The notes: generated by a model not told the origin, from the letters alone. A DNA stretch of 64,000 nt from Prorocentrum cordatum (GCA_963575745.1 CAUYUJ010000099.1:1-64000); one strand, 5' to 3'; positions 15,812 to 63,310 are shown, counted from the first letter of the stretch. Numbers and translations are program-made.

Positions 15812-16334
15812 TATTGATATTTCCTGGTGTTTTGTGCGACCAGTCAGTCCAGCTGTGTTGAGTGTTTAGCATATCCTGCTTTTTCTTCCTCACCGTTCCC
15901 CTCGTATGTTCGTGTTCTTTCCTCCTCGCCTTTGCCCGTTTCATCTTGACGTGCAAGGACAGCTTGTCTTCGATTGATCTGGCCAACGTTGCAATTTGGG
16001 ACAATCCATCCGAACAGTTTGGAGCGGTAACAGGAGGAGAAGGAGAGGCAAGAGGAGAAAAGGGTTTGGGGGACGACAAGGAAGTTCGGCGAGGGAGGGC
16101 GACAGGACGACAAAGACTCGAGAGGCTCACTGCGACTTTGGCTAGTGCCCGAACACCGTCGATGGAGCTCAGAGGCGACACTGCTGATTACGCTCGCGTG
16201 CATCCATCAGTTTCCCTGTCTGTCTCTGCCGTGGTTCGAAAGATGCTCCTGTAAATTCCAAAGACGAAATCCAAATGTTTCTTGGGTCGCCTCCTCGTAT
16301 TGCTAAAAGCAGTCGTAGCATTTCTGAGTATGGT

Positions 16335-22878
<6,544 letters not shown>

Positions 22879-41952: not shown

Positions 41953-42880
41953 TTTGCCACCGCGGCGCGAGACGCTGACTGTTGTATTTTTATGTATTTT
42001 TACGAGCCGAGTTTGGACCTGGTTCGAAATTGTTCTCGTGGAAGGCCCGCACGGGACGCTGATTTTTCTAACGTCAGTTCGAGTTCGAACCTTGCTCGAA
42101 CCTGCTTGTCGAGTAAAGCTCACTTTTCTACTGCTCCGAACTGGCTTCTATGGTTTGTTTCGAAACGACTTCCGCGTGTGGCTCGGCTTCTTTCGGGAGG
42201 AAGCTCCACGCGGCCTGCCGTTTTTCGAACCGCCATCCAGTGTAGCCTCATAACCATCGAGTTTGGGGTCCAGGCCCGAGGTTGTCCGCCCCCCACTGGT
42301 GCAGCTCCACTCGCAGTGGATGTTTTTTTGAGCCGGTCGTGCAGTTCGTCGGCCAGGGCTTGGGCGCGCTCGGCCATTTGTGGAAGCCGCGCCGCACTTC
42401 TTCTTTGCAAAGTTTCGCGCCGTTTTCCCACGATCCCGCCGAAGGTTCCCCAGCGCATCATCAGTCGGCATGGCTGCTCAAGCGCAGTTCGGCCACTTGA
42501 ACCAAGATGGCTACTGAAAGCACGACCTGCCATTGTCAGGAGGACGGTCTGACATTGCCCGCGGGCGTGATCAAAAGGTTGGCCCGACATTTGCCACCGC
42601 GGCGCGACACGCTAAGTTCCCAATTGTTCGAGCCGAGTCAAAGATTGGTTCGAACATACTTTTCAAGGAAGTCCCGCACGGAACGCTCACGTCTATAATG
42701 TCTTCGAACCGAGCTCGAGCCTCGTTCGAGCTTGCTTTTCGAGGAAGTCCGGCACCACCGAGCGCTCACTTTTCTATGGCTTCGAACCGGCTTCTGCTGT
42801 TTCACACCGACTTCCGAGGATGGTTCGGACTTTTCTGCTGGGGGGAGTGCCACGCGGCCCGCCGCTTTCGAGCCGCCATC
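41953..42880. repeat. Two diverged ~290-bp direct repeats (41953-42237, 42590-42880) around a unique spacer
   Basis: Both start TTTGCCACCGCGGCGCGA, share GCTCACTTTTCTA and CCACGCGGCC, and end CCGCCATC. Confidence 0.7.
42496..42517 (-). other. Spliced-leader relic upstream of a GCCATG start
   Basis: The minus strand reads TCAGTAGCCATCTTGGTTCAAG (19/22 to DinoSL). GCAGCC-ATG follows with the ATG at 42471. Confidence 0.65.
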
Positions 42881-45170
42881 ACGTTGAGCCTTGCAGACAT
42901 GTAAGGGGCGGCATGCTCGGGCCGGACGAAAGGGGGGGATAGGGACAGGGGGGGTGCGAAGTTTGCTGCCTGCAGCTGGTGCCGGCCCCACCGAGGGGCC
43001 CATTCCTCGATACATGGCCGCCTCCAGCGCCGGGAGGCGCTGGGATAATCAGCTGCGTGAGCTGATTCTCGAACCCCCCCTTTGCTATCCCCCCCTGTCG
43101 CCCGGCCCATAGGCCCCCCGCGGGGGCGCGAAGATCGTCGCGCTTCGCGGGTCTCGGCTCGCGTCGGGCATGGCCTTCTGCGGGAGGAGTCTTCCAAAAT
43201 AGCTGTTAATAAAATCTATGTCGTCTGGGGACTGCTTTGAAACGATCTCTCGTCCTCACTATAAGGGCTTCTGGATTACGCGAGCTGATTCTCAACCCCC
43301 CCCTTTGCTATCCCCCCCTTTCGCCCAGCCCGGTATACGCCCCAGGTTGCCCGCCCCCCGCCGGCGCGGCTCCACTCCCGTCACATTGGGCGCCGCGTAA
43401 TGGGGGGGTCATGAATTGGGGGGTGGCGAGCGTGGCCCGAAAAGGTACCCAAACGGTACCCAAACGAGCCCCCTGGGGCTCTGGAGGGGCCCGAAAGGGG
43501 CACGAAAGGGGACCTGTTCTGACCGCCCCCATTTGTGACCCCCCCAATTAAGCCACGCCCAGTCGCATGGCGCCAGGCTCCGCGCGCCGAGCGGGGCACC
43601 TCCGACCCACGCTGCGCCAGCGCGCCAAACCTTCGGCGACCTCTCGTCGCGGCGCGGTGCTGCTGCCTCCTGGGGCCCTCTTGGGAGGCCTCTTGGAGGC
43701 CAGTCGGGGCGTCTTGGAGGCCTCCTTGGGTAGTCTTGAGGCCGTCTTGTGGGCGTCTTGGGCCGACCTTTCGGCGATTCGGGGCCCTCTCGGGCCGCCG
43801 CTGGGGCCTCTCAGGGCCCGCCTGGCTCGTCTTGGGCCCTTCTTGGCCCCGAAAAAGTCACGCGATAGGACGCGAGATTCCCCGAGAGATTTTAGAGGAG
43901 GATGCACAGGAAGAGGAATAGGGTGATCATCAACAGCAGTCGGAGGCGTTGACTCGTGCATGTCTTCATACATTGGTGTTTGGGGGGTTGACAGGTTCCT
44001 TGTCGCCCCCACCGGGACATAGTGAATCCCGTTCGCGTCGGACGTGACGTGGGTGCGGAGTTCTGGGCGAGTTGCCTAGGCCGTTAGGTGAACGGGGGGT
44101 AAGAAGTAGTCCTATTAACTGTTTCTGCGGGGGGGGACTGGTTCTGTGGTGTCGTGGTGTCGTCGCGGTGTCGTGGTGTTGTGATTTCGCGGTGTCTGAG
44201 AGTACGCTGTTGATTGGCTTCTGCTGGGCGGGGTTACGAGCGGGAGGCCAGAGGCTTGGGACGTCCATGGGGCGTGTTTGACAGGTGGGCTCCTCCTCCT
44301 CCCCCTCCTCCTCCTCGTCCTCCTCCTCCTCCTCCTCCTCCTCCTCCTCCTCCTCCTCCTCCTCCTCCGCCCTCCTCCTCCTCCTCCTCCTCCTCTTCCT
44401 CCTCCTCCTCCCGTTTGAGGACATGCGAAACTAGTGCGCACCCCATCCCTTGACCCCAGCTTTCTTCGAGGGCTGCGCAGGAAAGTCATGCGATGGCGCA
44501 GACCTGTCCGGGCAGATGAAGCCAGGACCCCAACGGCGGGGCCCGGCGGGAAAGTATTGCAAGCCCAGCGCACAGGTGTGCCCAAGGCTGGGACCTTGGG
44601 TGCGTGACTCCATGGAAAACGACAGCAACCACAGTGCGCCTGCACAAATATAGCCAGGACCCTTGGCGCGGGACCAATGGGCAACCATCGGGACCGCAAC
44701 GCGCATGCGCAGCTGAAGCCGGGACCTTCTGATCGGGACCGTGCGGGCCATTCACCACAGCCCGAGCACGCACGGCAAAGAAGGCCAGGGCCCCAGTGGC
44801 AATTCGCAGCGGGTGTTTGATCATCACGCACTGAGCCCCATTGTTTGGGCAGCACTGTACACTACACGCGTGATCGAATGAGTCATGTTGGATCTTTGTT
44901 CTAGAACTGTCTGGTCATTGCGGAAACGATAGACGCACGGATTAGACGTTCAAGAGTGTTGGGTGTGCTGGTTTGGCCCGCGGAGCACAAGATCCGCACA
45001 GGCCTGGCCAGCCCAGCTCTTCCCTCTCCCGCCTCCTCCTCCTCCTCCTTTTCATCCTCCTCTCCGCCTCCTCCCTCCTCCTCCTCCTCCTCCTCCTCCC
45101 CCTCCTCCTCCTCCTCCTCCTCTTCCTCCTCTTCCTCCTCCTCCTGCCGTTGCTTCTGCCGCTCCTACAG

Positions 45171-45326
45171 GATGCGTCCGCGCAGGCGGGGATCGACTAC
45201 GTGGCGATGGAGGGGACGCTCGTGTTCGAAAGCGGCATGATCCAACAGACCATCCCGTGCATCATCAAGGGCTCGGGCCGCTACGAACGCAAGGAGTTCT
45301 TCCGCGTGATCCTCTCGGACGTGGAG
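45171..45326 (+). CDS. Calx-beta protein exon F: DASAQAGIDYVAMEGTLVFESGMIQQTIPCIIKGSGRYERKEFFRVILSDVE
   Basis: CAG acceptor after a long (CCT)n tract. Continues exon E in frame (YKTE|DASAQAGIDY...GTLVF...YERKEFFRVIL). The likely donor is GA at 45327. Confidence 0.88.
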
Positions 45327-45826
45327 GAGCGTCCCTCCGCTGGCGCATTGCATGCCGTTGGGCAGGGTCCCGCAGAGGAGGGAGGGTAAAAGAGCGTTCG
45401 CAGAGAGAAGGGGGGACTGAAAGGAGGAAGATGGAGAGGGGATTCGCAAAAAAGGCGAAGACGGAGGACGGAGAAGGATTGAGAAGGAGGCAAGGGGGGG
45501 GGGGAGGGAGCCTGGACCCTGTGTGATTCCCCGGGGAGACTGGCTGGAGGGTAACAGAGGGAAAGGAAGGAAGAAAGCGGTAGCGAACGAGGCATGGAAA
45601 AGGGGGTTGGGGGAGTGAAATAAGAGAGCGGAGGAAAGACGGATGAATGAGAGGAGGGAGGGTTCTTCAGTCCATGCTCCGCGTCCTCATCTTCTTCCCG
45701 TTTCTCCCTACTCCAGATTACTACGGATCGGGGTAATTGGGGGGGGGGCTCGTTCCGCACACGAGTCCAAGCCAAACCTTCCCCGTCCTTCCCCGTCGTC
45801 GGTTTCTCCACATCCTACGCCTACGG

Positions 45827-45848
45827 TCCGTAGCCATTTGGGCTCGAG
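45827..45848 (+). other. Spliced-leader relic
   Basis: TCCGTAGCCATTTGGGCTCGAG, a 20/22 match to DinoSL. Confidence 0.8.
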
Positions 45849-53514: not shown

Positions 53515-54357
53515 TCAGGGTTTGCCGAAATGGGCGGGGGGGCCGCATGCAATGCCTTGCCGCTGAAGCCGTCGGTGAAGCTACTCGTGGGGCCACGAGA
53601 CGTGTGATGGGTGTGCCGTCATGAGCGAGGGAACCGCACGCGACACCTTGCCGCTGAAGCCTTCGGTGAGGCTCCCTGCGGGACATCGAAACGTGTCAAG
53701 GGCGTGCCGAAATGAGCGGAGGGACGCTGCGCGAGAACCTCCCACTGAAGCCCTCGGTAAAGCTCCTTCTGGGACCACGAAACGAGTGAGGGGTGTGCCA
53801 AAATGGGCTGGTGGACGCTTCCCTTTCACAGAAGCCTTCGGTGGAGTTTCTGGTCGGGCCACGAAACGTGTGAGGGGTGTGCCGAAACGGGCGGGCGGAG
53901 ATTATACAATGCCTCGCCGGTGAAGCTTTCGGTGGTGCTCCCTATAGGGCAACCAAACGTGTCAGGGCCTTGCCGAAATGGGCGGGGGGACGTTATGTGA
54001 TACGCTGCCACTGAATCATTCGGTGGAGCTCCCTCTGGAGCCGCGAAACATGTGAGAGGTTTACCGATATGGGCGGGGGGCGCTATGTAATACCTCGCCA
54101 CTGAGGCTCTCGGTGGGGCTCCCTGTAGGACCACAAAACGGGTGTGCGGTGTGCCGAAACGGGCGTGGGGGACCGCATGCAATGCCTTGGCACTGAGGAC
54201 TTAGGTGGAGCTCCTCATCACGAAACGTGCGAGAGGTGTGCGGAAGCAGAGACATGCGGAGGGCAGAAGCAGGAGGAGGGGGCAGCGGGAAGGAAGGAGG
54301 ACGCGGGGCGCTACTGGCTCGAAACAGGACCCGACATCACAGGATGGTTCGGAACAG
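53515..54357 (+). mobile_element. Older, diverged copy of the satellite-bearing element
   Basis: Degenerate GCCACGAAACGTGTGAGGGGTGTGCCGAAA units, with a 3' end ACGCGGGGC...CACAGGATGGTTCGG matching the other copies. Confidence 0.6.
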
Positions 54358-55515
54358 AAATCGACGATCTTGGGTCCTTGGTAGAGGTCCTCTCGGGGTT
54401 CTCTTGACCCTCCCAAGACCTCCTCTGGGACCCCTCCCAGGACCCCCCTCCCCGAGACCCCCCCATCCAGGACCCAACCCCCGGGACTCCCCCCCCATGA
54501 GACCCCGCCCCCCCCATGTGGGGAAGGGATCAAAATGAGGGGTATCTCGTTCGACTAGACTAGATTAGGACCCGGTTCGATTCACCTCGTGGTGGCGGAG
54601 CTGGAGAGCCAGGTCGACTCAAAGAGCGTCTCCCAGGAGCACCCTTGGATGACCTGCGGATTCCTCCCGCACCGCCTATCCACGAGTGAGCTTATTTGCT
54701 GGTCGCCACCGGGGGTTCCAACACCACCGGGTTTGGGAATATCGTTTCTGGCTCTCCTTCTGAGTGGCTGCCCGCTCGCTCGCTTCGCTTGCCTTTCTTT
54801 TCCTGCTGCCTAGTCGCGGCCCGACTGGTGTTCGGACGGCTTTCGACCCGCCTCGCGAGCCTGTTGACCAAAAAGCTATCCACGAGTGAGGTCTCAGCAG
54901 CCTGGGAAGGGTGGCATTGGCGCGTTCCTGGGCGCGTGTTCGACGGCTCCACAAACGAGCGGGCACGAGAGGCACACTGGCCGAAGTCCTGCGCGCTGCC
55001 CTGGGCGCGCCGGCACGTTTATATCGGGTCCGCGTGCGAAGGCCAAGAGGCCCACAGGCACGGAGGACACCTCGGGGTCTTCCCCCTGCGGCGCCAGGCC
55101 CATCAGTCTGCAGGGGGCCCATCAGTCTGGGAAGGGGGCGCGCTGGCGCGATTCGGGGTGCGTGCCCGAGAGCTGATGCAGCAGACGGGCATGACAGAAG
55201 CCGTGTCTCCTCGCCAGCCGTTGCGGATGTTCTTCCCGCACCGCCAGGTTTACGACCTTCCCGACCCACGCGCCCACGGCCCCAGATGCACCAGCGCCCT
55301 CCCGACTCGCGCGCCCATGGCGTCAGATCGGGTCGGTGACCCTCCCGGCTTCCTGTCCCTCCTTTTCCTCCTCATCCGCCTTCTCCTCCTCCTCATGTTC
55401 CTCGTCCTGCTCCTCCGCCTCCTCCTCCTCCTTTCCTCCTCCTCCTCCTCCTCCTCCTCGTCCTCCTCCTCCTCCTCCTCCTCCTCCACCTCCTCTGCTT
55501 CTCCTCCTCCTCCTC

Positions 55516-55537
55516 CCTGTAGCCATTTTGGCTCAAG
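55516..55537 (+). other. Dinoflagellate spliced-leader copy (SL relic)
   Basis: CCTGTAGCCATTTTGGCTCAAG. The last 19 nt are identical to the DinoSL consensus DCCGTAGCCATTTTGGCTCAAG. Confidence 0.92.
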
Positions 55538-58500
55538 CTCGAAACCTTGCAGCGAGGTTTCGAGCTTGTCCGCAGCTGTGCGACAGGCTCGAGACCCCAT
55601 TGCAGGAGTTTTGGCATCACGGCGGTCTCTGCCAGTTGTGTGAGGGCTCGCCCCAGGCGGGCCAGCTTGGCTCTGCGGCATTGCGCACGGGCGGCAATGG
55701 CAATCGCGGACCGAAGGCTGGGAACCTGGGGGGAGCGCACATCCTATTCCAAGTGCAAGGCCTGCGGCTACAAGCGGAACTGGGTCAGCAACACCTCGTG
55801 CTTCCAGTGCCGCAGGGGCTTGCAACCTGCGCGCTCGCAGGAGAGGGCGCCGATTGGGGCATGGGCAGCGCCAGGGGGGCTGTCGCGCGCGGGCAGTCGC
55901 CCACGGCGCCAGTAGCAGGCCGCCTCAACCGAGGAACTGCTGCGCCAGCTCCGTGCAGTGCTGCCGTCGGGCGACGCCGCCACGGCCTTGAGGGTACAGG
56001 ACCTCGCCGCCGCCCTCGGCGCACGCCGACGTCGTGCTCAACCAGGCGCGGGCGCGCGTCCGCAGGGCTGAGCACACCCTCAAGGTGGCCATCACGGCCG
56101 TCGCGGACGCCGAGAAGTGGCTGGTCGCCAAGCGTGCCGAGCAGGAAGGCGCCATCGTGGAGGTGGCCGAGGCCGAGGCTGCGGCGGCCCAGGCCTACGC
56201 TGCCGCCGCTCCCGAGGGCGCCGCCGCCCCCGCGGCGCCTGCCGCGCCAGCAGCCAGCGCCCCTGCCGTCGGCGCCGCCCTGGACCTCCCGCGTTTCCTG
56301 GAGCAGGACGCGGCGGTCCTGGACGTCAACGCGGGCGCGCTCTTCGACCTCGAGGGCCTCGACATCTCCGACGCGGAGAAGGCGCAGTTCCAGGAGCAGG
56401 TGGCCAACGTCGTCAAGCAGGTCCAAGGGGAGGTCCAGAAGCACTTCGGGCCCGCCGCCGAGGGTTGGCAGGCCGTGCGCGCGGAGCTCAAGACCACGCA
56501 GGACCGCCTCAAGGCGAAGCGCCCGCGATCGGCCGCCCCAGAGCCCGCCGCCGAGGCCGCCGCAACCGCCGCCCCGCAGCCCCAGCAGCCTGCAGAGAAG
56601 GCGGCAGGCACAGGAGGAAAGGGTGCTGAGGAGCCAGCCACGAAGGGCCCCGCCGACGGGACCAACGCCCCCCCTCCTGGCCAGGGTCCCGGACCTGCTG
56701 CTGATTCTGCTGGGCCAAGCACGACCGGTAGCGCCAGCGGGGCTCCGCGAGCTCCACGCCGCCAGGTGGGCCCTGCCGAGCGGGGCCGAATCTTGGCCAG
56801 GGCGGGCGGGGCCAACGAGGCCCCGCAACAGCGAGCCTGAGAGCGCGGCCTCAGGAGGCCAACGCACACCGTGGCTGACTCCCACCCCTTTGGCACGATG
56901 CCGCTCGGCTCCAGCGACGCCCCGCTCGACGCGGACTGCGCCGCGGGCGTGGCAAGCGCCCTGCCGCCCCCGCGCTGCTGGCCCCTGGCGTTCCCGCGGC
57001 CTACGTGAAGCGGGTTGGCTTCTTCGTCGGCGGCTTCGTCTACCAGCCGACTACGGACGCGCGTTTGGCAGCGGCTTCGGCGCAGGAGGGGCGCCAGATA
57101 CTGCGCCAGCAGCAGGCGCCGCCGCGGGCTCAACGGGGCGCCGTGGAGGCCAAAGACCAAGACCTTGCGCGTCGGCGAGCCCTGCGCGACACGTGGACCT
57201 TGGAGCGTCGCCTCCGCACGTACGCGGGCCACTGGATGGAAGATCCGCTTTCAGATGACGACGACATGGACAGTCTCCTCTGGCGCAGGGCTTGCGCGCC
57301 GCATGTTGCTCGGCACCTGGAACGCCCGCTGATGTGCTCCCTGGTTATCGAACGAGCTGGGCGCGATGGCACCTCCACCCTAAACGTCCGTGTCGACGTG
57401 GTCATCGAGATTTGCCTTCGAGCTTTTCGGCAGAGGCGACGGCAGCGACTCCGCCATTCCCAATGGATGCGGCACCTTTCCATCTATGACGCGGAGGAGT
57501 GGATGAGGCGATGGCGCGAGCACCAGGGCTCGATGCGCAGAGAGACCGAAGACTTAGACAGCGGCCAAGGGCTAGCTTACGCCTTCATCGCGCGCACCAC
57601 CCTGGACATGGACGCCCTGGCAGCATGCCACCAGGACGGCCCCAGCCACCTCCAGAGCTTCAGCCGATTGCAGGACGACCCCAAAGAGGTGATCAGCATC
57701 GCCAGCACCCAGAGGGCCACTCGCGGGAAACAAGCCAGGCATGACCACACGGGGGCTGAACGCCAACCCCTGGGCACCTCGTGTCGGCCTGACGGCCGCC
57801 GCGAGTGGGCCTGCTGGTGGACGCGCTCGCGTACTTCGACGGCGTCGGCACCTTCGACGCCCCCCCCCCTGGCTCGCTTGGGCGGTTCGCGGCCACGTGG
57901 GCCCCAGGATTCCAGAAGGGGGGATCACGCTGGTCACCGCGTACTTCTGGGCGGCAGAGGGCTGGGCCATCCGCGACCTCCTCGCTCCTCGGCGCCATCG
58001 ATGAGCTGGCCCGCTCCTGCGACGCCCCCTGAGTGCCCCAGGCGGACTTCAACAACGCGCCCGACACGCTGAAGAGTGGCGACTGATGTGCCGACGCCGG
58101 GCATTCTCTTCGCCCCCGAAGAGCCCACCTGCCAGGGGCGCGGAGGTGGACGGGTCATCGACTTCTTAGTCGTCGACACTCGTATCGCGCACGCCTTCGC
58201 CGACGCCGCCGCCATGGACGCCCCCGCGCCCCCGCGCAGCCCAGCGCGCCTCACCGCGGCTAGACCCCTGCGTGCCATGACGGCCCGCGCTCGACGAAGC
58301 CAAGGGCCTCCCCTACGCGGGCCCCAGTGGGCCGCAGGCCCCAGCCGCCCAGCTGGCCGCAGTTGGACCCCGACGCTAGCCACGACGACCAGCAGCTTGA
58401 CGACCCCTGACGCCAGTTCTCGGCCGCGGCCGAGTCCGACCTCCAGGGGCTGTTCGACCTCCGCGGGGAGGATAACTACACAGGCTGGGGCGAGGCCCCG

Positions 58501-61500
58501 CGCTGGGCACGCGCCCCGCTGGCAGGGCCAGAAGCGCGCGCTAGGCCGCGAGGTTCCACGCGATCCCGAGCCTGGCGCCGAGCGGCGGCGCGCCTGGGCG
58601 ACATCATCCTGCTGGCGGACGCGGCGCGGCGCCAGGGCTGGACGCCGCTGGCGGGCCGCTGGCGCCGCCCCCAGCGCCCCGCGCATGGCGCGGCGCGCTG
58701 GCGTGGCGCCCTTGGAGGGGAGGCCCGCGAGATCCACTGCAAGCTGCTGCGGATCGCGGACCTCGCCTGGACGGGCGACGCGCCGATGATCGAGGCCCCG
58801 CAGGCGATGGCCCCCCAGCGCCGAGCCGTCGCCGAGGCCCGCTCCATCGAGAGCTCCCTCCAGTCGCAGCGCGCCACGGCCTGGCGCGAGCGGCTCCGTG
58901 ATGGCTCGGCTGGCGGCGCAGGCTTCATCCACCACGTGTCCAAGTGAAAGGCAAGGTCGTCCCCACAGTAGGCGCCAGGGGCCACGCGAACCTGGACATG
59001 ACGGACCCTCAGATTGCGGTGGGCGCGGCGGCCATAGACTGGATCGACCTCTGGCGGCAGTCCCGCGGCGCCGAGAGCCGCGGCGAGCGCCCAGGCAATG
59101 GGAGGATGAGGGATTCCCTGCCTGCCTGCCTGGCCCACCCCGATCCAGAAGACGTTCGAACGATTTGCCGAGCTTTTCCCGAGCACGCGGGGTGGGGGGG
59201 TGACAATTGGCACCCACGGTGGTGGTCATTCCTGAGTGATGGGGGGTTGGCGTTCTTGGCCGCACTTGTGGCCTACGTTCCACGCACGGCGCACTGGCCC
59301 ACCCAGCTCCGCTTCGTGTTTTCTTTCTTCCTGCCGAAACAAAAGGGGGCACTCGGCCGATCGGCCTGCTCACCTCCCCCGGCCGACTCGTCGAGCGAGC
59401 GCATGCGTTTCTGTTTTTTGTTTGTTTTTGTGTGTGTTTTTTTTTTCCGGTTGGGGGCGTACGATTCGACGTGCTTACGATTTCGCGGCCCCCGAGGGCG
59501 GTTCCGAAAACGCCATGTGGCACCATATGCTAGCTGATGAAGGCCCCCCCCTGGCGGGACGTCGGGCACGGCGGTCCTAGATCTGCACGAAGCCTTCGAG
59601 CATTGCAGCATGTATCTCTTGTGCGCGGAGGCGCCCAAGCATGGGTTCCCGCCCCAGTTACTTAAACTGTTGAATTCGATTTGTACTGGTGAGCGTCTGG
59701 TGACCTTCTGGGGCATCGTTTCGGCGCGCACCACTCATACCTATTCGGCGGTGGTGGCGGGGAGCACGGGGGGACTCCGTGCCTAAAGCTTGCTTTCCTG
59801 TCCGTCACTGACGCCTTGGCCAGCGTCAGCCCCCCCTTTTGCAACTTAAGCTTTTTTTGGGGCGACCTCAGCATCCAAGCCACGGGCGAGGAAGCTGAAG
59901 TTCCCCAGCAGCTCTTCGATGCCACGGTTCAGTACATTACCGCCATGGAAGCTAAATGTATCCTTGTTTCGCTTTCCAGGCCTGGCGGCCCTCCAGGTAA
60001 TGGTTACATCCTGGCCTCCCCCCTCTCTCTCAGGACCCGAATGCGTGGTTGGGCTCGCCAGTTGGGCTTACATATCCAACGCCATAGCACGCAACTAGAG
60101 GTCGACTCGGCGGGAGGAGCTCCCCTGAAAGGCACGCCCAGGTTCGCGGGAAGATTGGCCGGCGCACGCAGGCGTCGCACCACACTCACCAGCCCGGCCA
60201 AGCAAGGGTCTCGTCCGTACAAGGTCGCTCGAATAAGGTTCATGCCGTCGGTGTTGCATGGTGCGTCGCGCTTGGGAATGGACCCCGCTCGAGTGAACCG
60301 GGCAGGCATTCTAATGGCCAGCGCGTTGGGGGGCCAAGCGATAGGGAAGGGTAGAGCCATTCGCCTGTGGGTCTTCAAGTCAGACCCCCTGGTGGACGCC
60401 TGCACGTGCCCCCTCTTTGCACTGGGCCAAGGCGGCGTGGGAAGGCCGCCATGAGGTGCTGATGCGGGCTGTCTGGCGAAGGGCTGCGGTCGCGGCTGCC
60501 CAGGCCAAGCCAGGCCAGAGCATGTGGCGCGTGGTCAAGGGACCCGCTTCCGCCGTCCTCGCCACGCTCCGTCGGCTCGAGTGGAGCTGGCCCACCTATG
60601 CCACACTTTGTGAACACCTCGGGGGGGCTCTGGGATCTTCATCGGTTGGCCCCCAGCGCTTTGAAGGCCTTAGATGCTGCCAGGATCGAGTTTCTGACCT
60701 CATGGGCTGAAGTTCGAGGTTTGGGAATTTCCATGCCGTTTCTGGAGCCCGTTCGCGCGCTGTTGCGGTCCAAGGGATATCGTTCCCCCCAGAGGCGGTC
60801 GGCCGCCTTGGCCTATGTTGGCTGAGAGTTTTGGACTCTGGACGATTCGCGGCGCGCAGGGTACACTGAGGACTGCGCGTGCCGACAGTGTGCCGCGGAT
60901 ATAGGCTGCCAGCACCATCGTTTCGCTAAGTGCCCAAGGCACCACGCTGCGCGCCACCAAGTTGCCGTCGAGTGGGGCGTCCACTGGATAGTGCATCGTT
61001 TCGAGTCCTCCGAGCCTGAGTCTCTCCTCTTCTCCCGTGGCATTGTGGAACATGGGCCCGTATATGAACCCTCCACTCTGCCAGGGCCGCGCCTATTCAG
61101 ACGGCTGTGGACGGGGGCCGCCAGGGCTCGAAAGTTACGGGTGGGGGCGTGTCTTTTTGGATGACGACGGTTCGATTATCAGGGCCATGCACGGCTCACT
61201 TCCTGGCCCGCGTTTCCTTTGCACCGTTTTGAGGGCTGAGATGTTCGGCCTCATGAAAAGTTCTGGAAGTTGCCACCCTTCCCCTCTGTGTCGGCATAGA
61301 CAATGCCACAGTCATCAGAGGCCTGCGCAGAGGCCAGAAGTGATGCTGCCGAGCCTCTCGCCCGCATGCTGACCTGTGGACTGGAGTCTGGTTTCTCCTA
61401 TGGGAAAGTTTTGCCGACCACGGTTCTTTCGCGAAGTTTCGGGCCCAATCCAGAGGCCCAGCCGACGAGTCGCATGACGGTTTCCTGGATTTCCAAGGGA

Positions 61501-62280
61501 AACAGCGTGCCGACGTTGAAGCTAAGGCAGGCGCAGATTTGCCGACGGTCCCCCAGTGGATGAGCGCCACCTGGACCTCCCGAGCGGCCGAGGTCCAGGG
61601 GGTGCTCGGACTGGTGGCGGGGATGGCGGCGTCGGTGGGGGAAGTTCGGAGATTCCGCTGAGAGACCTGCCGCAGTTGCTCGACCCCGTCGCTCTCGACT
61701 CCCGCCTGGCTCCACCCCTCACTCCCTCCTCAGAGCACGTGGCGCGTGGCGTTGCACCCCGTGTTGTCGCTGCGAACGCACCATGTGCGCTGGGCGCGCT
61801 CTGGCACGCAGACCTCGCGGGAGGAGGCGTCGTGTCGACCGGCGCTGGGTCGGCCCAGAGGGGGGGAGGAGTTCAAGATTCCTGCCGCACTCCGCGGCGA
61901 GGCCTTGGGGCACGAGCTCCATCGTGCTGGCCAGTGCACGCACTGCGCCCGCCGCGGGGCCTTCACGATCGACAGAGGGTGCGAGCTCGTCGTCGGCTGC
62001 AGGAAATCTCCTGCACACCCGACGGCAGCGCACCGCCCCTCGCTCTTGGCCCGAGCGAGGCATCCTTACCGAGTGCAGCTCGCTCTTGAGCAGGCGTCCC
62101 GTTCCCTGCTCCCTTGGGAATGCGACGCCTTCCGGGAGCGGGCGCTCTGACCCACGCCCTCTCATTGGGCAGAGTTTTCTGGCGGGGAGGGGTGTGGCAC
62201 CTCAGCAGTGTGCCCCCATCCGCCGCCTGGACTGAAGGCTGGCTGGGGCAGGGATCTGCCAGGCGGGTTCTCGCAGCAAA
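55516..62280 (+). mobile_element. Degenerate near-full-length non-LTR retrotransposon (ORF1 zinc finger/coiled coil; APE-RT-RNase H) with a 5' spliced leader
   Basis: ORF1 from ATG 55697 has CKACGYKRNWVSNTSCFQC (RanBP2-like) and an Ala/Glu-rich coil to 56840. APE motifs: VTAYF, QADFN, EPTC...RVIDFLVV (~57900-58200). RT motifs: GGDNWHPRWW, FLPKQKG, VLDLHEAFEH, VVAGS, FFWGDL (~59150-59880). RNase H: YSDG...GWG...TVLRAE, DNATV, KGN (~61090-61510). His/Cys tail to TGA 62150. Many stops and frameshifts. Confidence 0.85.
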
Positions 62281-62784
62281 CCTCCTCCTCCTCCTCCTCC
62301 TCCTCCTCCTCCTCCTCCTCCTCTTCCTCCTCCTGTTCCTGTTCCTTCTCCTCCTCCTCCTCCTCCTCCTCCTCCTTCGCCTCCTCCTCCGCCTCCGCCT
62401 CCTCCTCCTCCTCCGCCGCCTCCTCCTTCTCCTCCGCCTCCTCCTTCTCCTCCCCCATTCACCAGCCTCCCCCTCGTGGCCCCACCCTTCCCGCTTCCTC
62501 CCACCCACCCCAGTCCCCCCAGGTTTGTTCCACTTCGCTCCAATTGCATCCGCCTCTGCCGCTTTCTCCGGATGCAGAGACGAAGCATGTGGAAGCGCAG
62601 TAGGAACAGGAGGTGGTTGAGGAGGAGGAAGAGGAGGAGGAGGAGGAGGAGGAGGAGGAGGAGGAGGAGGAGGAGGAGGAGGAGGAGCGAGGGGTGCGTC
62701 ACAAATTGGTCCGAGTTCTGGTGAGTATTGAAAACATTGTCGCAGTCAAAGCCTCGGCTTTATTTGGTTGGTTTGTGGTGTACG

Positions 62785-63310
62785 CATCTGTGTATGCTTG
62801 TCAGTATGTATGTATGCGTGTCTGTATGTATGCATGCATGTATGCATGTGTGTACGGATGCATGTGTGCACGTGTGTATGTTTGTATGTATGTATGTACG
62901 TATGTGTGTGTATGTATGTATGTATGTATGTATGTATGTATGTTTGTATGTATGTATGTATGGATGGATGGATGGATGGATGGATGGATGGATGGATGGA
63001 TGGATGGATGGATGTATGCATGCATGCATGCATGCATGCATGTATGTATGTATGTATGTATGTATGTATGTATGTATGTATGATTGTATATATAATATAC
63101 ATGAACGTAAGTATGTAGGTAAGTATGGGTGGTTGGATGTATGGATGGATGGCTGTACGTAGGTATGTCAGTAGGTAGATCGGTAGGTATGGATGGATGC
63201 AGGCATGCATGGATGCTTACATGCTGAGCTTCCTAAACGACGCGTGAATATACATGTGATTACATATATTTACATACAAACAGATATATATATATATATA
63301 TATATATAAT
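62785..63310. repeat. (TATG)n/(TGGA)n/(TGCA)n/(TA)n compound microsatellite
   Basis: Read directly from the sequence. Confidence 0.92.

What the first reader, a model, noticed from the sequence alone, without database searches (positions are those of the whole stretch)
55350..62450. LINE retrotransposon that begins exactly with a spliced leader and sits in a (CCT)n tract: candidate promoter-less element living on trans-splicing
Seen: a (CCT)n tract runs directly into a near-perfect DinoSL (55516-55537), then a 159-nt leader, ORF1, APE-RT-RNase H remnants and a short 3' UTR ending GCAGCAAA, after which (CCT)n resumes. The element is on the same strand as the host gene, downstream of exon F. 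Established: dinoflagellate mRNAs receive the SL by trans-splicing, SL relics mark retroposed mRNAs, and some APE LINEs target microsatellites. Inference: this LINE's template was a trans-spliced mRNA copied to its 5' end. Inserting in this orientation puts a pyrimidine tract right before the SL's own AG dinucleotides, which rebuilds a trans-splice acceptor. A new copy could then be cut out of host pre-mRNA and capped without an internal promoter. This copy is dead (stops, frameshifts, FWGD where YxDD is expected).
Basis: partly seen in the sequence, partly recalled or inferred. Interest (0 to 1): 0.9.

Follow-up and report, generated by a model that had tools for sequence, protein, structure and literature searches.

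The report
Dead LINE headed by spliced leader
This is a broken, full-length copy of a dinoflagellate jumping gene (a LINE) whose first letters are the short leader that these algae splice onto every messenger RNA, which shows it was copied from a finished mRNA; the idea that the family needs no promoter could not be tested here.

Summary
A (CCT)n tract (55358-55516) runs into a spliced-leader (DinoSL) relic at 55516-55537; its 19 3' letters are exact. A 159-nt leader, a broken ORF1 and ORF2 remnants follow. The 3' end is ...GCAGCAAA at 62280, where (CCT)n resumes.

Pfam found none of the three ORF2 domains in the window. A whole-library search found relatives that carry RT and RNase H families. 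One relative's N-terminus folds as an AP endonuclease. These relatives align to 57835-62066 with many frame changes, and the window's FWGD aligns to their YVDD.

So this is a dead, full-length APE-type LINE, copied from a trans-spliced mRNA to its 5' end and inserted in a (CCT)n microsatellite. Each ingredient is known: DinoSL relics on retrocopies, and APE LINEs that target microsatellites.

The bold part could not be tested: a promoter-less family living on host read-through plus trans-splicing. No genome is held, no second copy lies in the window, and no RNA run holds it. The read-laying tool skipped the junction.

Two points count mildly against it. The copy has no tandem relic head. Published dinoflagellate acceptor sites show no pyrimidine-tract consensus.

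A neat example and a testable idea, but not a demonstrated new mechanism.

The parts
55358..55516 (.). Left (CCT)n flank, a degenerate microsatellite
   Evidence: TRF period 3, 53.7 copies, 79% matches; sequence
55516..55537 (+). DinoSL relic forming the 5' terminus of the element. 55519-55537 is exact; the first 3 letters are ambiguous with the microsatellite
   Evidence: 1 exact hit; 0.01 hits expected with up to 3 mismatches; consensus from a PMC7245778 passage
55538..55696 (+). 159-nt 5' UTR, strongly structured
   Evidence: RNA fold of 55516-55700 gives -95.8 kcal/mol, z -4.56, 0 of 200 shuffles as stable. No Rfam family, no ribozyme
55697..56840 (+). ORF1 remnant. ATG at 55697, premature TAG at 55913-55915, continues in another frame 55992-56840 to a TGA. 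The N-terminus has a C-x2-C-x10-C-x2-C motif, followed by an alanine/glutamate-rich helical-looking part
   Evidence: No Pfam family at E<=1 apart from a sub-threshold ApoLp-III match. No homologue found for 55523-55912
57300..58270 (+). AP-endonuclease (APE) domain remnant of ORF2, spread over several frames (LLGTWNAR at about 57306-57329; TAYFWAAEGW; GRVIDFLVVD at about 58148-58177)
   Evidence: tblastn places P0013 residues 135-505 and P0044 residues 38-406 on 57835-58944. P0013 residues 30-300 fold as an ExoIII/APE/LINE-1 EN fold. Motifs read
59110..60420 (+). Reverse-transcriptase remnant in at least 3 frames, with FWGD in place of YVDD and a T-rich low-complexity insert at about 59406-59450
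   Evidence: RVT_1 in relative P0023 (35.7 bits, cut-off 29.6). Alignment A1. The insert was flagged as a repeat
60410..61060 (+). Post-RT region, aligned to the part of the relatives that carries a C-x2-C...H...C motif
   Evidence: tblastn of P0003, P0013, P0005 and P0044; consensus of A3
61076..61643 (+). RNase H remnant
   Evidence: tblastn of P0015 612-766, P0023 1576-1664, P0005 520-653 and P0044 1207-1289. These stretches carry Pfam RNase_H in the relatives. Profile A3 hits RNase H chains in the PDB at E 0.002-0.03
62090..62280 (+). Short 3' UTR ending GCAGCAAA, with no poly(A) tail
   Evidence: The last homology to relatives ends at 62066, and the frame stops at 62087-62089
62281..62453 (.). 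Right (CCT)n flank. This is either the resumed target microsatellite or the element's own repeat tail
   Evidence: TRF period 6 (CCTCCT), 28.8 copies, 86% matches

Best explanation
Window 55516-62280 (+) is one dead, structurally full-length copy (6,765 nt) of a dinoflagellate APE-type non-LTR retrotransposon. Its layout is 5' UTR, ORF1, ORF2 (AP endonuclease, reverse transcriptase, Cys/His motif, RNase H) and a short 3' UTR. Like every nuclear mRNA of a dinoflagellate, its template RNA had received the 22-nt spliced leader by trans-splicing. Target-primed reverse transcription ran to the 5' end of that mRNA, or to within 3 nt of it, so the leader became the first letters of the DNA copy. The copy landed in a (CCT)n microsatellite, oriented so that the + strand reads CCT on both sides. 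That fits either an endonuclease preference for this repeat or pairing of a (CCU)n-ended RNA with the nicked (AGG)n strand. The copy has since decayed. Shown: anatomy, boundaries, SL identity, domain homology and decay. Inferred: the trans-spliced template, the TPRT route and the targeting of the repeat.
For: The SL relic is exact over 19 nt at the 5' boundary. It abuts the UTR without any SL-intron sequence. The same microsatellite lies on both sides of one 6.77-kb unit. There is no poly(A) run or other internal 3' end between ORF1 and ORF2. A phmmer search of 1.84 billion representatives with window 59693-60451 gave 46 hits at E<=0.001, 8 of them at E<=1e-10. Of 11 hits scanned in Pfam, RNase_H scored above its cut-off in 4 (P0015, P0023, P0044, P0027) and RVT_1 in 1 (P0023). 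RVT_1 scored below its cut-off in P0015, as did RNase_H in P0005 and P0037. tblastn lays the relatives on 57835-62066 in collinear order, with at least six frame changes along P0003's path. Motif C aligns. The N-terminal 271 residues of relative P0013 give a model with pLDDT 71 and pTM 0.77. Its best Foldseek matches are ExoIII/APE enzymes and the LINE-1 and TRAS1 endonucleases, at E 3e-10 to 2e-8. One public run (X1) holds 125 contigs that lie on the element at 80% or more identity: 8 at >=99%, 5 at 95-99%, 27 at 90-95% and 85 under 90%. They cover all 30 bins, so a diverged multi-copy family exists. CCT/AGG tracts of 30 nt or more are 1,495 nt of the window, or about 2.2% of the non-element part once the 222 nt flanking the element are left out. 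APE LINEs that target microsatellites are established (PMC3812793 passage). DinoSL relics as marks of retroposed mRNAs are established (passages of PMC7245778, PMC6050394 and PMC12014239).
Against: Pfam sees none of the three domains in the window's own frames (0 of 27 ORFs), so every domain call leans on relatives of 22-35% identity. The first 3 SL letters do not match the consensus, so 'copied to the very end' is true only to within 3 nt. Targeting of (CCT)n rests on one insertion that a reader picked out after the fact. There is no poly(A) tail, which a copy of an ordinary polyadenylated mRNA might be expected to carry. A target-site duplication cannot be read in a microsatellite. ORF1 has no detectable homologue. 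That it belongs to the LINE rests on position alone.
Confidence: 0.8

Rival explanations
1. The family has no promoter of its own. Copies inserted in the sense strand of transcribed regions are cut out of host read-through RNA by SL trans-splicing at an AG of their own genomic SL relic. The upstream (CCT)n acts as the pyrimidine tract, so the SL relic is a heritable 5' processing signal.
For: The anatomy is as required: pyrimidine tract, then SL relic with two AGs (GTAG|CC and CAAG|CT), then UTR. Splicing at the terminal AG would regenerate exactly the single-SL head seen here. A passage of PMC2488372 reports a gene with a genomic SL-like sequence at the exact trans-splice site. Song et al. 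(PMC5585692 passage) find 'RNA-dependent DNA replication' enriched among genes with DinoSL relics, and propose that the relic helps retrocopies to be expressed. No ribozyme was found that would offer another way to free the 5' end. One + strand exon lies upstream.
Against: Nothing here tests it: there is one copy, it is dead, no RNA holder was listed, and the junction was skipped by the read tool. The usual re-splicing site of relics leaves a 15-nt truncated relic behind the new SL (PMC12014239 and PMC7245778 passages). This copy has none. PMC2488372 finds no simple consensus beyond the AG at dinoflagellate acceptors. An intronic, sense position is not shown. A preprint (10.1101/783902 passage) reports no overlap between functions enriched in DinoSL-relic genes and in RT genes in two Symbiodinium genomes. 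Every dinoflagellate mRNA is trans-spliced, so an SL head does not tell a promoter-less LINE from one with a promoter.
Confidence: 0.15
2. Two events rather than one. An SL-headed retrocopy of an unrelated mRNA (55516 to about 56840) and a 5'-truncated LINE (about 57300 to 62280) lie side by side by chance.
For: ORF1 has no homologue and no family. None of the 46 relatives aligns upstream of 57835. In run X1 the stretches 55699-56156 and 56615-57759 have low depth, 1.5-5.5.
Against: No poly(A), repeat or other 3' end separates the parts. The same (CCT)n tract borders only the outer ends. The order 5' UTR, ORF1, ORF2 and the 6.8-kb size are those of an ordinary LINE. The APE N-terminal motif (LLGTWNAR) is present, so ORF2 is not 5'-truncated.
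Confidence: 0.04
3. The SL was added by template switching of the reverse transcriptase from the LINE RNA's 5' end onto a free SL RNA or another capped RNA, as in U6/L1 chimaeras (recalled, no call). The LINE RNA itself was not trans-spliced.
For: The chimaera-forming ability of LINE reverse transcriptases is established for L1 (recalled).
Against: A switch onto SL donor RNA would copy its intron part between the SL exon and the LINE 5' end. Here the exon's last AG abuts the UTR, and no SL RNA family or other small-RNA gene is seen.
Confidence: 0.02

Closest known systems
DinoSL-relic retrocopies (retrogenes) of dinoflagellates (Slamovits and Keeling 2008, seen only as cited in passages of PMC6050394, PMC7245778 and PMC12014239; Song et al. 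2017, PMC5585692 passages)
   Same: A genomic copy of the 22-nt leader sits at the 5' end of a reverse-transcribed mRNA. The relic's AG can serve as a new acceptor. RT-related GO terms are enriched among relic-bearing genes.
   Different: Here the retroposed mRNA is that of the retrotransposon itself, so the relic is the terminus of a mobile element. The passages I read do not describe a LINE family with an SL head.
Microsatellite-targeting APE-type LINEs: Waldo (ACAY), Mino (AC), Kibi (TC), Koshi (TTC), Dong (TAA) (PMC3812793 passage)
   Same: An APE-type LINE flanked on both sides by one microsatellite, with no poly(A) tail.
   Different: The target would be (CCT)n, in a dinoflagellate. Only one insertion was seen, so specificity is not shown. 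The clade is unknown.
LINEs co-transcribed with host RNA that free their own 5' end: R2 and L1Tc with HDV-like ribozymes (abstracts of PMC3185411 and PMC3383444 in the listing)
   Different: No ribozyme was detected. The processing step would be host SL trans-splicing, and it is not shown here.
SL-gene-targeting LINEs: SLACS/CZAR/CRE of trypanosomatids and NeSL-1 of nematodes (recalled; only the listing was seen)
   Same: A LINE physically joined to spliced-leader sequence.
   Different: Those elements carry a restriction-like endonuclease and insert into SL RNA genes, splitting the SL exon. This one is APE-type, carries the whole SL as its head, has no SL-intron sequence next to it, and sits in a microsatellite.
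SL-bearing retrotransposon annotations in Schistosoma mansoni (PMC5832876 passages)
   Same: [quoted passage not shown]
   Different: A different phylum and a different SL. The authors themselves could not exclude assembly chimaeras, and the structure was not resolved.

Membership tests
APE-type non-LTR retrotransposon (LINE) | Reverse transcriptase domain with motif C (YxDD-like) | tested here: met
   Relatives found with window 59693-60451 (46 hits). RVT_1 scores above its cut-off in P0023. The window aligns to the relatives' RT at 59110-60420. FWGD aligns to YVDD. Pfam on the window's own frames gave 0 of 27.
APE-type non-LTR retrotransposon (LINE) | N-terminal AP-endonuclease (EEP fold) domain in ORF2 | tested here: met
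   Tested on a relative, not on the window's own product. The AF2 model of P0013 residues 30-300 (pLDDT 71, pTM 0.77) matches ExoIII/APE and the LINE-1 and TRAS1 endonucleases at E 3e-10 to 2e-8. The window aligns to P0013 135-505 at 57835-58944 and keeps LLGTWNAR and GRVIDFLVVD. Pfam found no APE family in P0013, P0044 or P0003 even at E<=10.
APE-type non-LTR retrotransposon (LINE) | No LTRs; a 3' end without terminal repeats; insertion as a single unit with variable flanks | tested here: met
   blastn of the element against the rest of the window found no match to the element's ends or any other part of it; repeats inside the element were not examined separately. The unit is bounded by one microsatellite. 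A target-site duplication is unreadable in the repeat.
APE-type non-LTR retrotransposon (LINE) | Multi-copy, dispersed family | tested here: met
   125 contigs of run X1 lie on it at 80-100% identity over all 30 bins. About half run on into unlike sequence. There is no second copy in the 64-kb window.
RNase H-bearing LINE clades (I, Tad1, LOA, R1, Ingi and others; list recalled) | RNase H domain C-terminal to the RT | tested here: met
   RNase_H scores above its cut-off in 4 of 11 relatives scanned. The window aligns to those stretches at 61076-61643. PDB RNase H chains are hit by profile A3. Clade assignment by an RT tree was not done, because no reference LINE sequences were on hand.
DinoSL-relic retrocopy | Genomic DinoSL at the 5' boundary of reverse-transcribed, intron-less mRNA sequence | tested here: met
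   20 of 22 letters match, with the 19 3' letters exact, directly abutting the UTR.
DinoSL-relic retrocopy | Re-expression with a new SL spliced in front of or into the relic (tandem heads in cDNA) | not testable with these tools
   No RNA holder was listed. The genomic copy has no tandem relic.
Microsatellite-specific LINE | Most copies of the family are flanked by the same repeat in the same orientation | not testable with these tools
   Only one copy has readable flanks. The read tool skipped 55470-55523 and 62272-62330. No genome is held.
SL-gene-targeting LINE (SLACS/NeSL type) | Insertion inside an SL RNA gene, with SL exon/intron sequence on both sides and a restriction-like endonuclease | tested here: not met
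   The flanks are (CCT)n, no SL-intron sequence or SL RNA family was found, and the endonuclease is APE-type.
Ribozyme-processed co-transcribed LINE (R2/L1Tc type) | HDV-like self-cleaving ribozyme at the 5' end | tested here: not met
   The Rfam scan of 55000-62800 at E<=1 gave only two sub-threshold miRNA-like matches. The 5' UTR is nevertheless unusually stable.

The most novel reading that the evidence does not exclude
A dinoflagellate LINE family that carries the host's spliced leader as a heritable, self-renewing 5' processing signal. Copies that land in the sense strand of long host transcription units are released by trans-splicing at the terminal AG of their own SL relic. That regenerates an identical single-SL head in every generation. 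(CCT)n targeting fixes the orientation and supplies upstream pyrimidines, so the element needs no promoter.
Probability: 0.15. Interest if true: 0.8.

Novelty: new member of a known kind. Interest (0 to 1): 0.45.

Why it matters
Dinoflagellate genomes are very large, and which retroelements make their thousands of SL-tagged retrogenes is debated (PMC6050394 favours LTR elements). A LINE copy whose own 5' end is an SL relic shows three things. At least one LINE lineage was expressed as an ordinary trans-spliced mRNA. Its reverse transcriptase could copy such an mRNA to the end. The same machinery is therefore a natural candidate for making SL-tagged retrogenes. If the family proves to be SL-headed and sense-biased throughout, it would be the first retrotransposon shown to use SL trans-splicing in place of a promoter or ribozyme.

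Tried and rejected
- **Other copies in the window:** blastn/tblastx of the element against the rest of the window gave none. tblastn of the 46 relatives gave 70 matches, all inside 55300-62500.
- **Earlier notes of this scan:** nothing on this genome or sequence. The single 'DinoSL' note concerns giant viruses and is unrelated.
- **Protein word searches:**
  - RT fragment, longer proteins: none.
  - 55523-55912, the frame in which other copies would start PFWLKL: none.
  - P0013 residues 30-300: 2 further relatives.
- **Cluster look-up:** switched off.
- **Metagenome scans:** a 27-letter 5' UTR pattern gave 0 loci. P0001 gave 131 pattern matches but no relative. Alignments A1 and A2 were too unconserved for the tool.
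- **Sequencing runs:** no RNA holder was listed. One DNA run (X1) holds 0.17 of the words.
- **Laying X1-X3 at 80% identity:** the tool skipped 55470-55523 and 62272-62330 as repeats, so the SL junction and the flanks of other copies stay unread. X2 laid 0 contigs. X3 laid 3 short low-complexity pieces.
- **Rfam:** no ribozyme and no SL RNA.
- **PDB by sequence with P0013:** none.
- **Host exons:** only the Calx-beta exon was found, in Pfam scans of 89, 40, 33 and 100 ORFs.
- **The two other SL relics:** they share nothing with the LINE head beyond the SL.
- **RT tree for clade assignment:** not built, because no reference LINE sequences were available.
- **Literature:** searches found no paper describing an SL-headed LINE family in dinoflagellates. 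Supplements were not opened.

Full report
**What is there.**
- TRF reports (CCT)n at 55358-55516 and at 62281-62453.
- The left tract runs into CCTGTAGCCATTTTGGCTCAAG at 55516-55537. The DinoSL consensus printed in PMC7245778 (passage) is DCCGTAGCCATTTTGGCTCAAG, so 20 of 22 letters agree and the 19 3' letters are exact.
- Allowing up to 3 mismatches, the 19-mer has three hits in the window against 0.01 expected from 100 shuffles. Only the one at 55519-55537 is exact.
- The first three letters (CCT) are in register with the microsatellite. The copy may therefore lack the first three SL letters, or have integrated by micro-homology.
- A 159-nt leader (55538-55696) leads to an ATG at 55697.
- The element ends ...GCAGCAAA at 62280 and (CCT)n resumes at 62281. 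There is no poly(A) tail.

**Is it a LINE?** Pfam alone says nothing: 0 of 27 + strand stop-to-stop ORFs between 55523 and 62232 hit an endonuclease, RT or RNase H family at E<=1. The evidence comes through relatives.
- A phmmer search of 1.84 billion representative proteins with the 253-residue frame 59693-60451 gave 46 hits at E<=0.001, 8 of them at E<=1e-10 and 2 at E<=1e-30.
- I scanned 11 hits in Pfam.
  - RNase_H scored above its cut-off in 4 (P0015, P0023, P0044, P0027) and below it in 2 (P0005, P0037).
  - RVT_1 scored above its cut-off in P0023 and below it in P0015.
  - One hit (P0016) is an unrelated bacterial Ig-repeat protein.
- tblastn lays the long relatives (P0003, P0013, P0023, P0044) collinearly on 57835-62066. 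There are at least six frame changes along P0003's path.
- In alignment A1 the window's FFWGDLSIQ stands where relatives have YVDDLSLQ, FVDDLS or VVDDLAIQ.
- The endonuclease was the weakest call. Pfam found no such family in P0013, P0044 or P0003 even at E<=10.
- I therefore folded P0013 residues 30-300 with a 5-row alignment, which gave pLDDT 71 and pTM 0.77.
- Foldseek against the PDB returned exonuclease III and AP endonucleases, and the LINE-1 (2v0r, 1vyb, 8sp7) and TRAS1 (1wdu) endonucleases, at E 3e-10 to 2e-8.
- The window keeps the N-terminal LLGTWNAR at about 57306-57329 and GRVIDFLVVD at about 58148-58177. ORF2 is therefore not 5'-truncated.
- ORF1 (55697-56840) is broken by a TAG at 55913 and a frame change. 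It has a C-x2-C-x10-C-x2-C motif that I read by eye, but no family and no homologue.
- No poly(A) run or other 3' end separates ORF1 from ORF2.

**One unit, in one microsatellite.** The same repeat borders only the two outer ends. The simplest reading is a single 6,765-nt insertion whose first letters are the SL and whose last letters are the LINE 3' UTR.
- CCT and AGG tracts of 30 nt or more cover 735 and 760 nt of the window.
- Without the 222 nt that flank the element, that is about 2.2% of the non-element sequence for either orientation, and about 0.9% for the CCT orientation.
- A random landing there is unlikely but not absurd, and the case was picked after the fact.
- APE LINEs that target microsatellites (Waldo, Mino, Kibi, Koshi, Dong) are established (PMC3812793 passage).
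- The orientation is what one expects if a (CCU)n-ended RNA pairs with the nicked (AGG)n strand. That step is my inference.

**A family exists.** Only one public run (X1, DNA, 0.17 of the sampled words) was found, and no RNA holder was listed.
- Laid at 80% identity or more, X1 gave 125 contigs over all 30 bins: 8 at >=99%, 5 at 95-99%, 27 at 90-95% and 85 under 90%. Half run on into unlike sequence.
- Contigs of >=99% identity confirm the window's letters where they lie. One example is 58756-59210, with 1 difference and no gaps. The frameshifts there are therefore not assembly errors.
- The tool skipped 55470-55523 and 62272-62330 as repeats, so it says nothing about the heads or flanks of other copies.
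- Three contigs with a summed depth of 215 cover the UTR around 55558, all reading C for the window's T. I cannot explain this excess over the rest of the element.

**The mechanism.**
- *Supported:* the template was a trans-spliced mRNA. The SL exon's last AG abuts the UTR with no SL-intron letters, which argues against template switching onto SL donor RNA. No SL RNA family and no ribozyme is found in 55000-62800.
- *Expected rather than surprising:* all dinoflagellate nuclear mRNAs receive the SL, and SL relics mark retroposed mRNAs (passages).
- *Related published results:* Song et al. already found 'RNA-dependent DNA replication' enriched among relic-bearing genes, and proposed that the relic helps retrocopies to be expressed (PMC5585692 passages). 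A preprint on two Symbiodinium genomes reported no overlap between functions enriched in relic-bearing genes and in RT genes (10.1101/783902 passage).
- *What I did not find:* in the passages I read, and in the searches, no explicit description of a LINE family whose terminus is the DinoSL.

**The promoter-less model.** It remains a hypothesis.
- *For it:*
  - The anatomy fits.
  - Splicing at the relic's terminal AG would regenerate exactly the single-SL head seen here.
  - PMC2488372 (passage) describes a gene with a genomic SL-like sequence at the exact trans-splice site.
- *Against it:*
  - Relics are usually re-spliced so that a truncated 15-nt relic remains behind the new SL, and this copy has none.
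  - The same paper finds no simple consensus beyond the AG at acceptors.
  - The sense and intronic position is not shown. The only supported exon is a + strand Calx-beta exon inside 44946-45386, 10 kb upstream, and none was found nearer or downstream.
  - An SL head cannot tell a LINE with a promoter from one without, because both would be trans-spliced.
- I put the model at about 0.15.

**Verdict.** The core interpretation (a LINE copied from an SL-capped mRNA into a microsatellite) is well supported and combines known phenomena. The life-cycle claim is untested. The closest known processing-dependent LINEs (R2 and L1Tc, with HDV-like ribozymes) and the SL-gene-targeting LINEs (SLACS/NeSL, recalled) differ in defining features that I tested and did not find.

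Noticed in passing
window 45827-45848 (+): A second DinoSL relic, TCC-headed, with 2 mismatches in the 19-mer. It lies about 450 nt downstream of the Calx-beta exon ORF on the same strand, followed by about 190 nt and an A-rich stretch but no long ORF. It is not preceded by (CCT)n and is not alike to the LINE head beyond the SL.
   Followed up: partly
window 42496-42514 (-): A third SL relic (2 mismatches) on the minus strand. It is followed after 24 nt by an ATG and an ORF of about 109 codons (42151-42477) with no Pfam family. It is probably another retrocopy, antisense to the Calx-beta exon, and its upstream flank is not a pyrimidine repeat.
   Followed up: partly
window 55516-55700 (+): SL plus 5' UTR folds far more stably than shuffles (-95.8 kcal/mol, z -4.56, 0 of 200), with a long hairpin around 55556-55596. 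No Rfam family matches it.
   Followed up: partly
window 55524-55698: In run X1 the 5' UTR bin has mean word depth 46. Three contigs of summed depth 215 carry C for the window's T at 55558, against depths of 2-34 elsewhere on the element. Possible causes are an abundant 5' fragment or a non-autonomous derivative. The variant breaks the perfect 10-bp hairpin just behind the SL.
   Followed up: no
window 55740-55810 (ORF1 N-terminus): A C-x2-C-x10-C-x2-C motif (CKACGYKRNWVSNTSCFQC) that resembles a RanBP2-type zinc finger, read by eye. Pfam gave no hit. It would be an unusual ORF1 nucleic-acid-binding module for a LINE.
   Followed up: no
window about 16250-22000: A very large satellite of 9/12/15-nt periods (more than 400 register-shifted copies). 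It is AT-richer (GC about 0.40) with strong C-over-G skew (-0.42 to -0.55), unlike the rest of the window.
   Followed up: no
window 53518-54172: A tandem array of a 91-nt unit, 7.3 copies at 68% matches, 1.2 kb upstream of the element.
   Followed up: no
window 59406-59450: A T-rich low-complexity insert inside the RT remnant (its translation reads FCFLFVFVCVFFF). The read-laying tool flagged it as a repeat.
   Followed up: no
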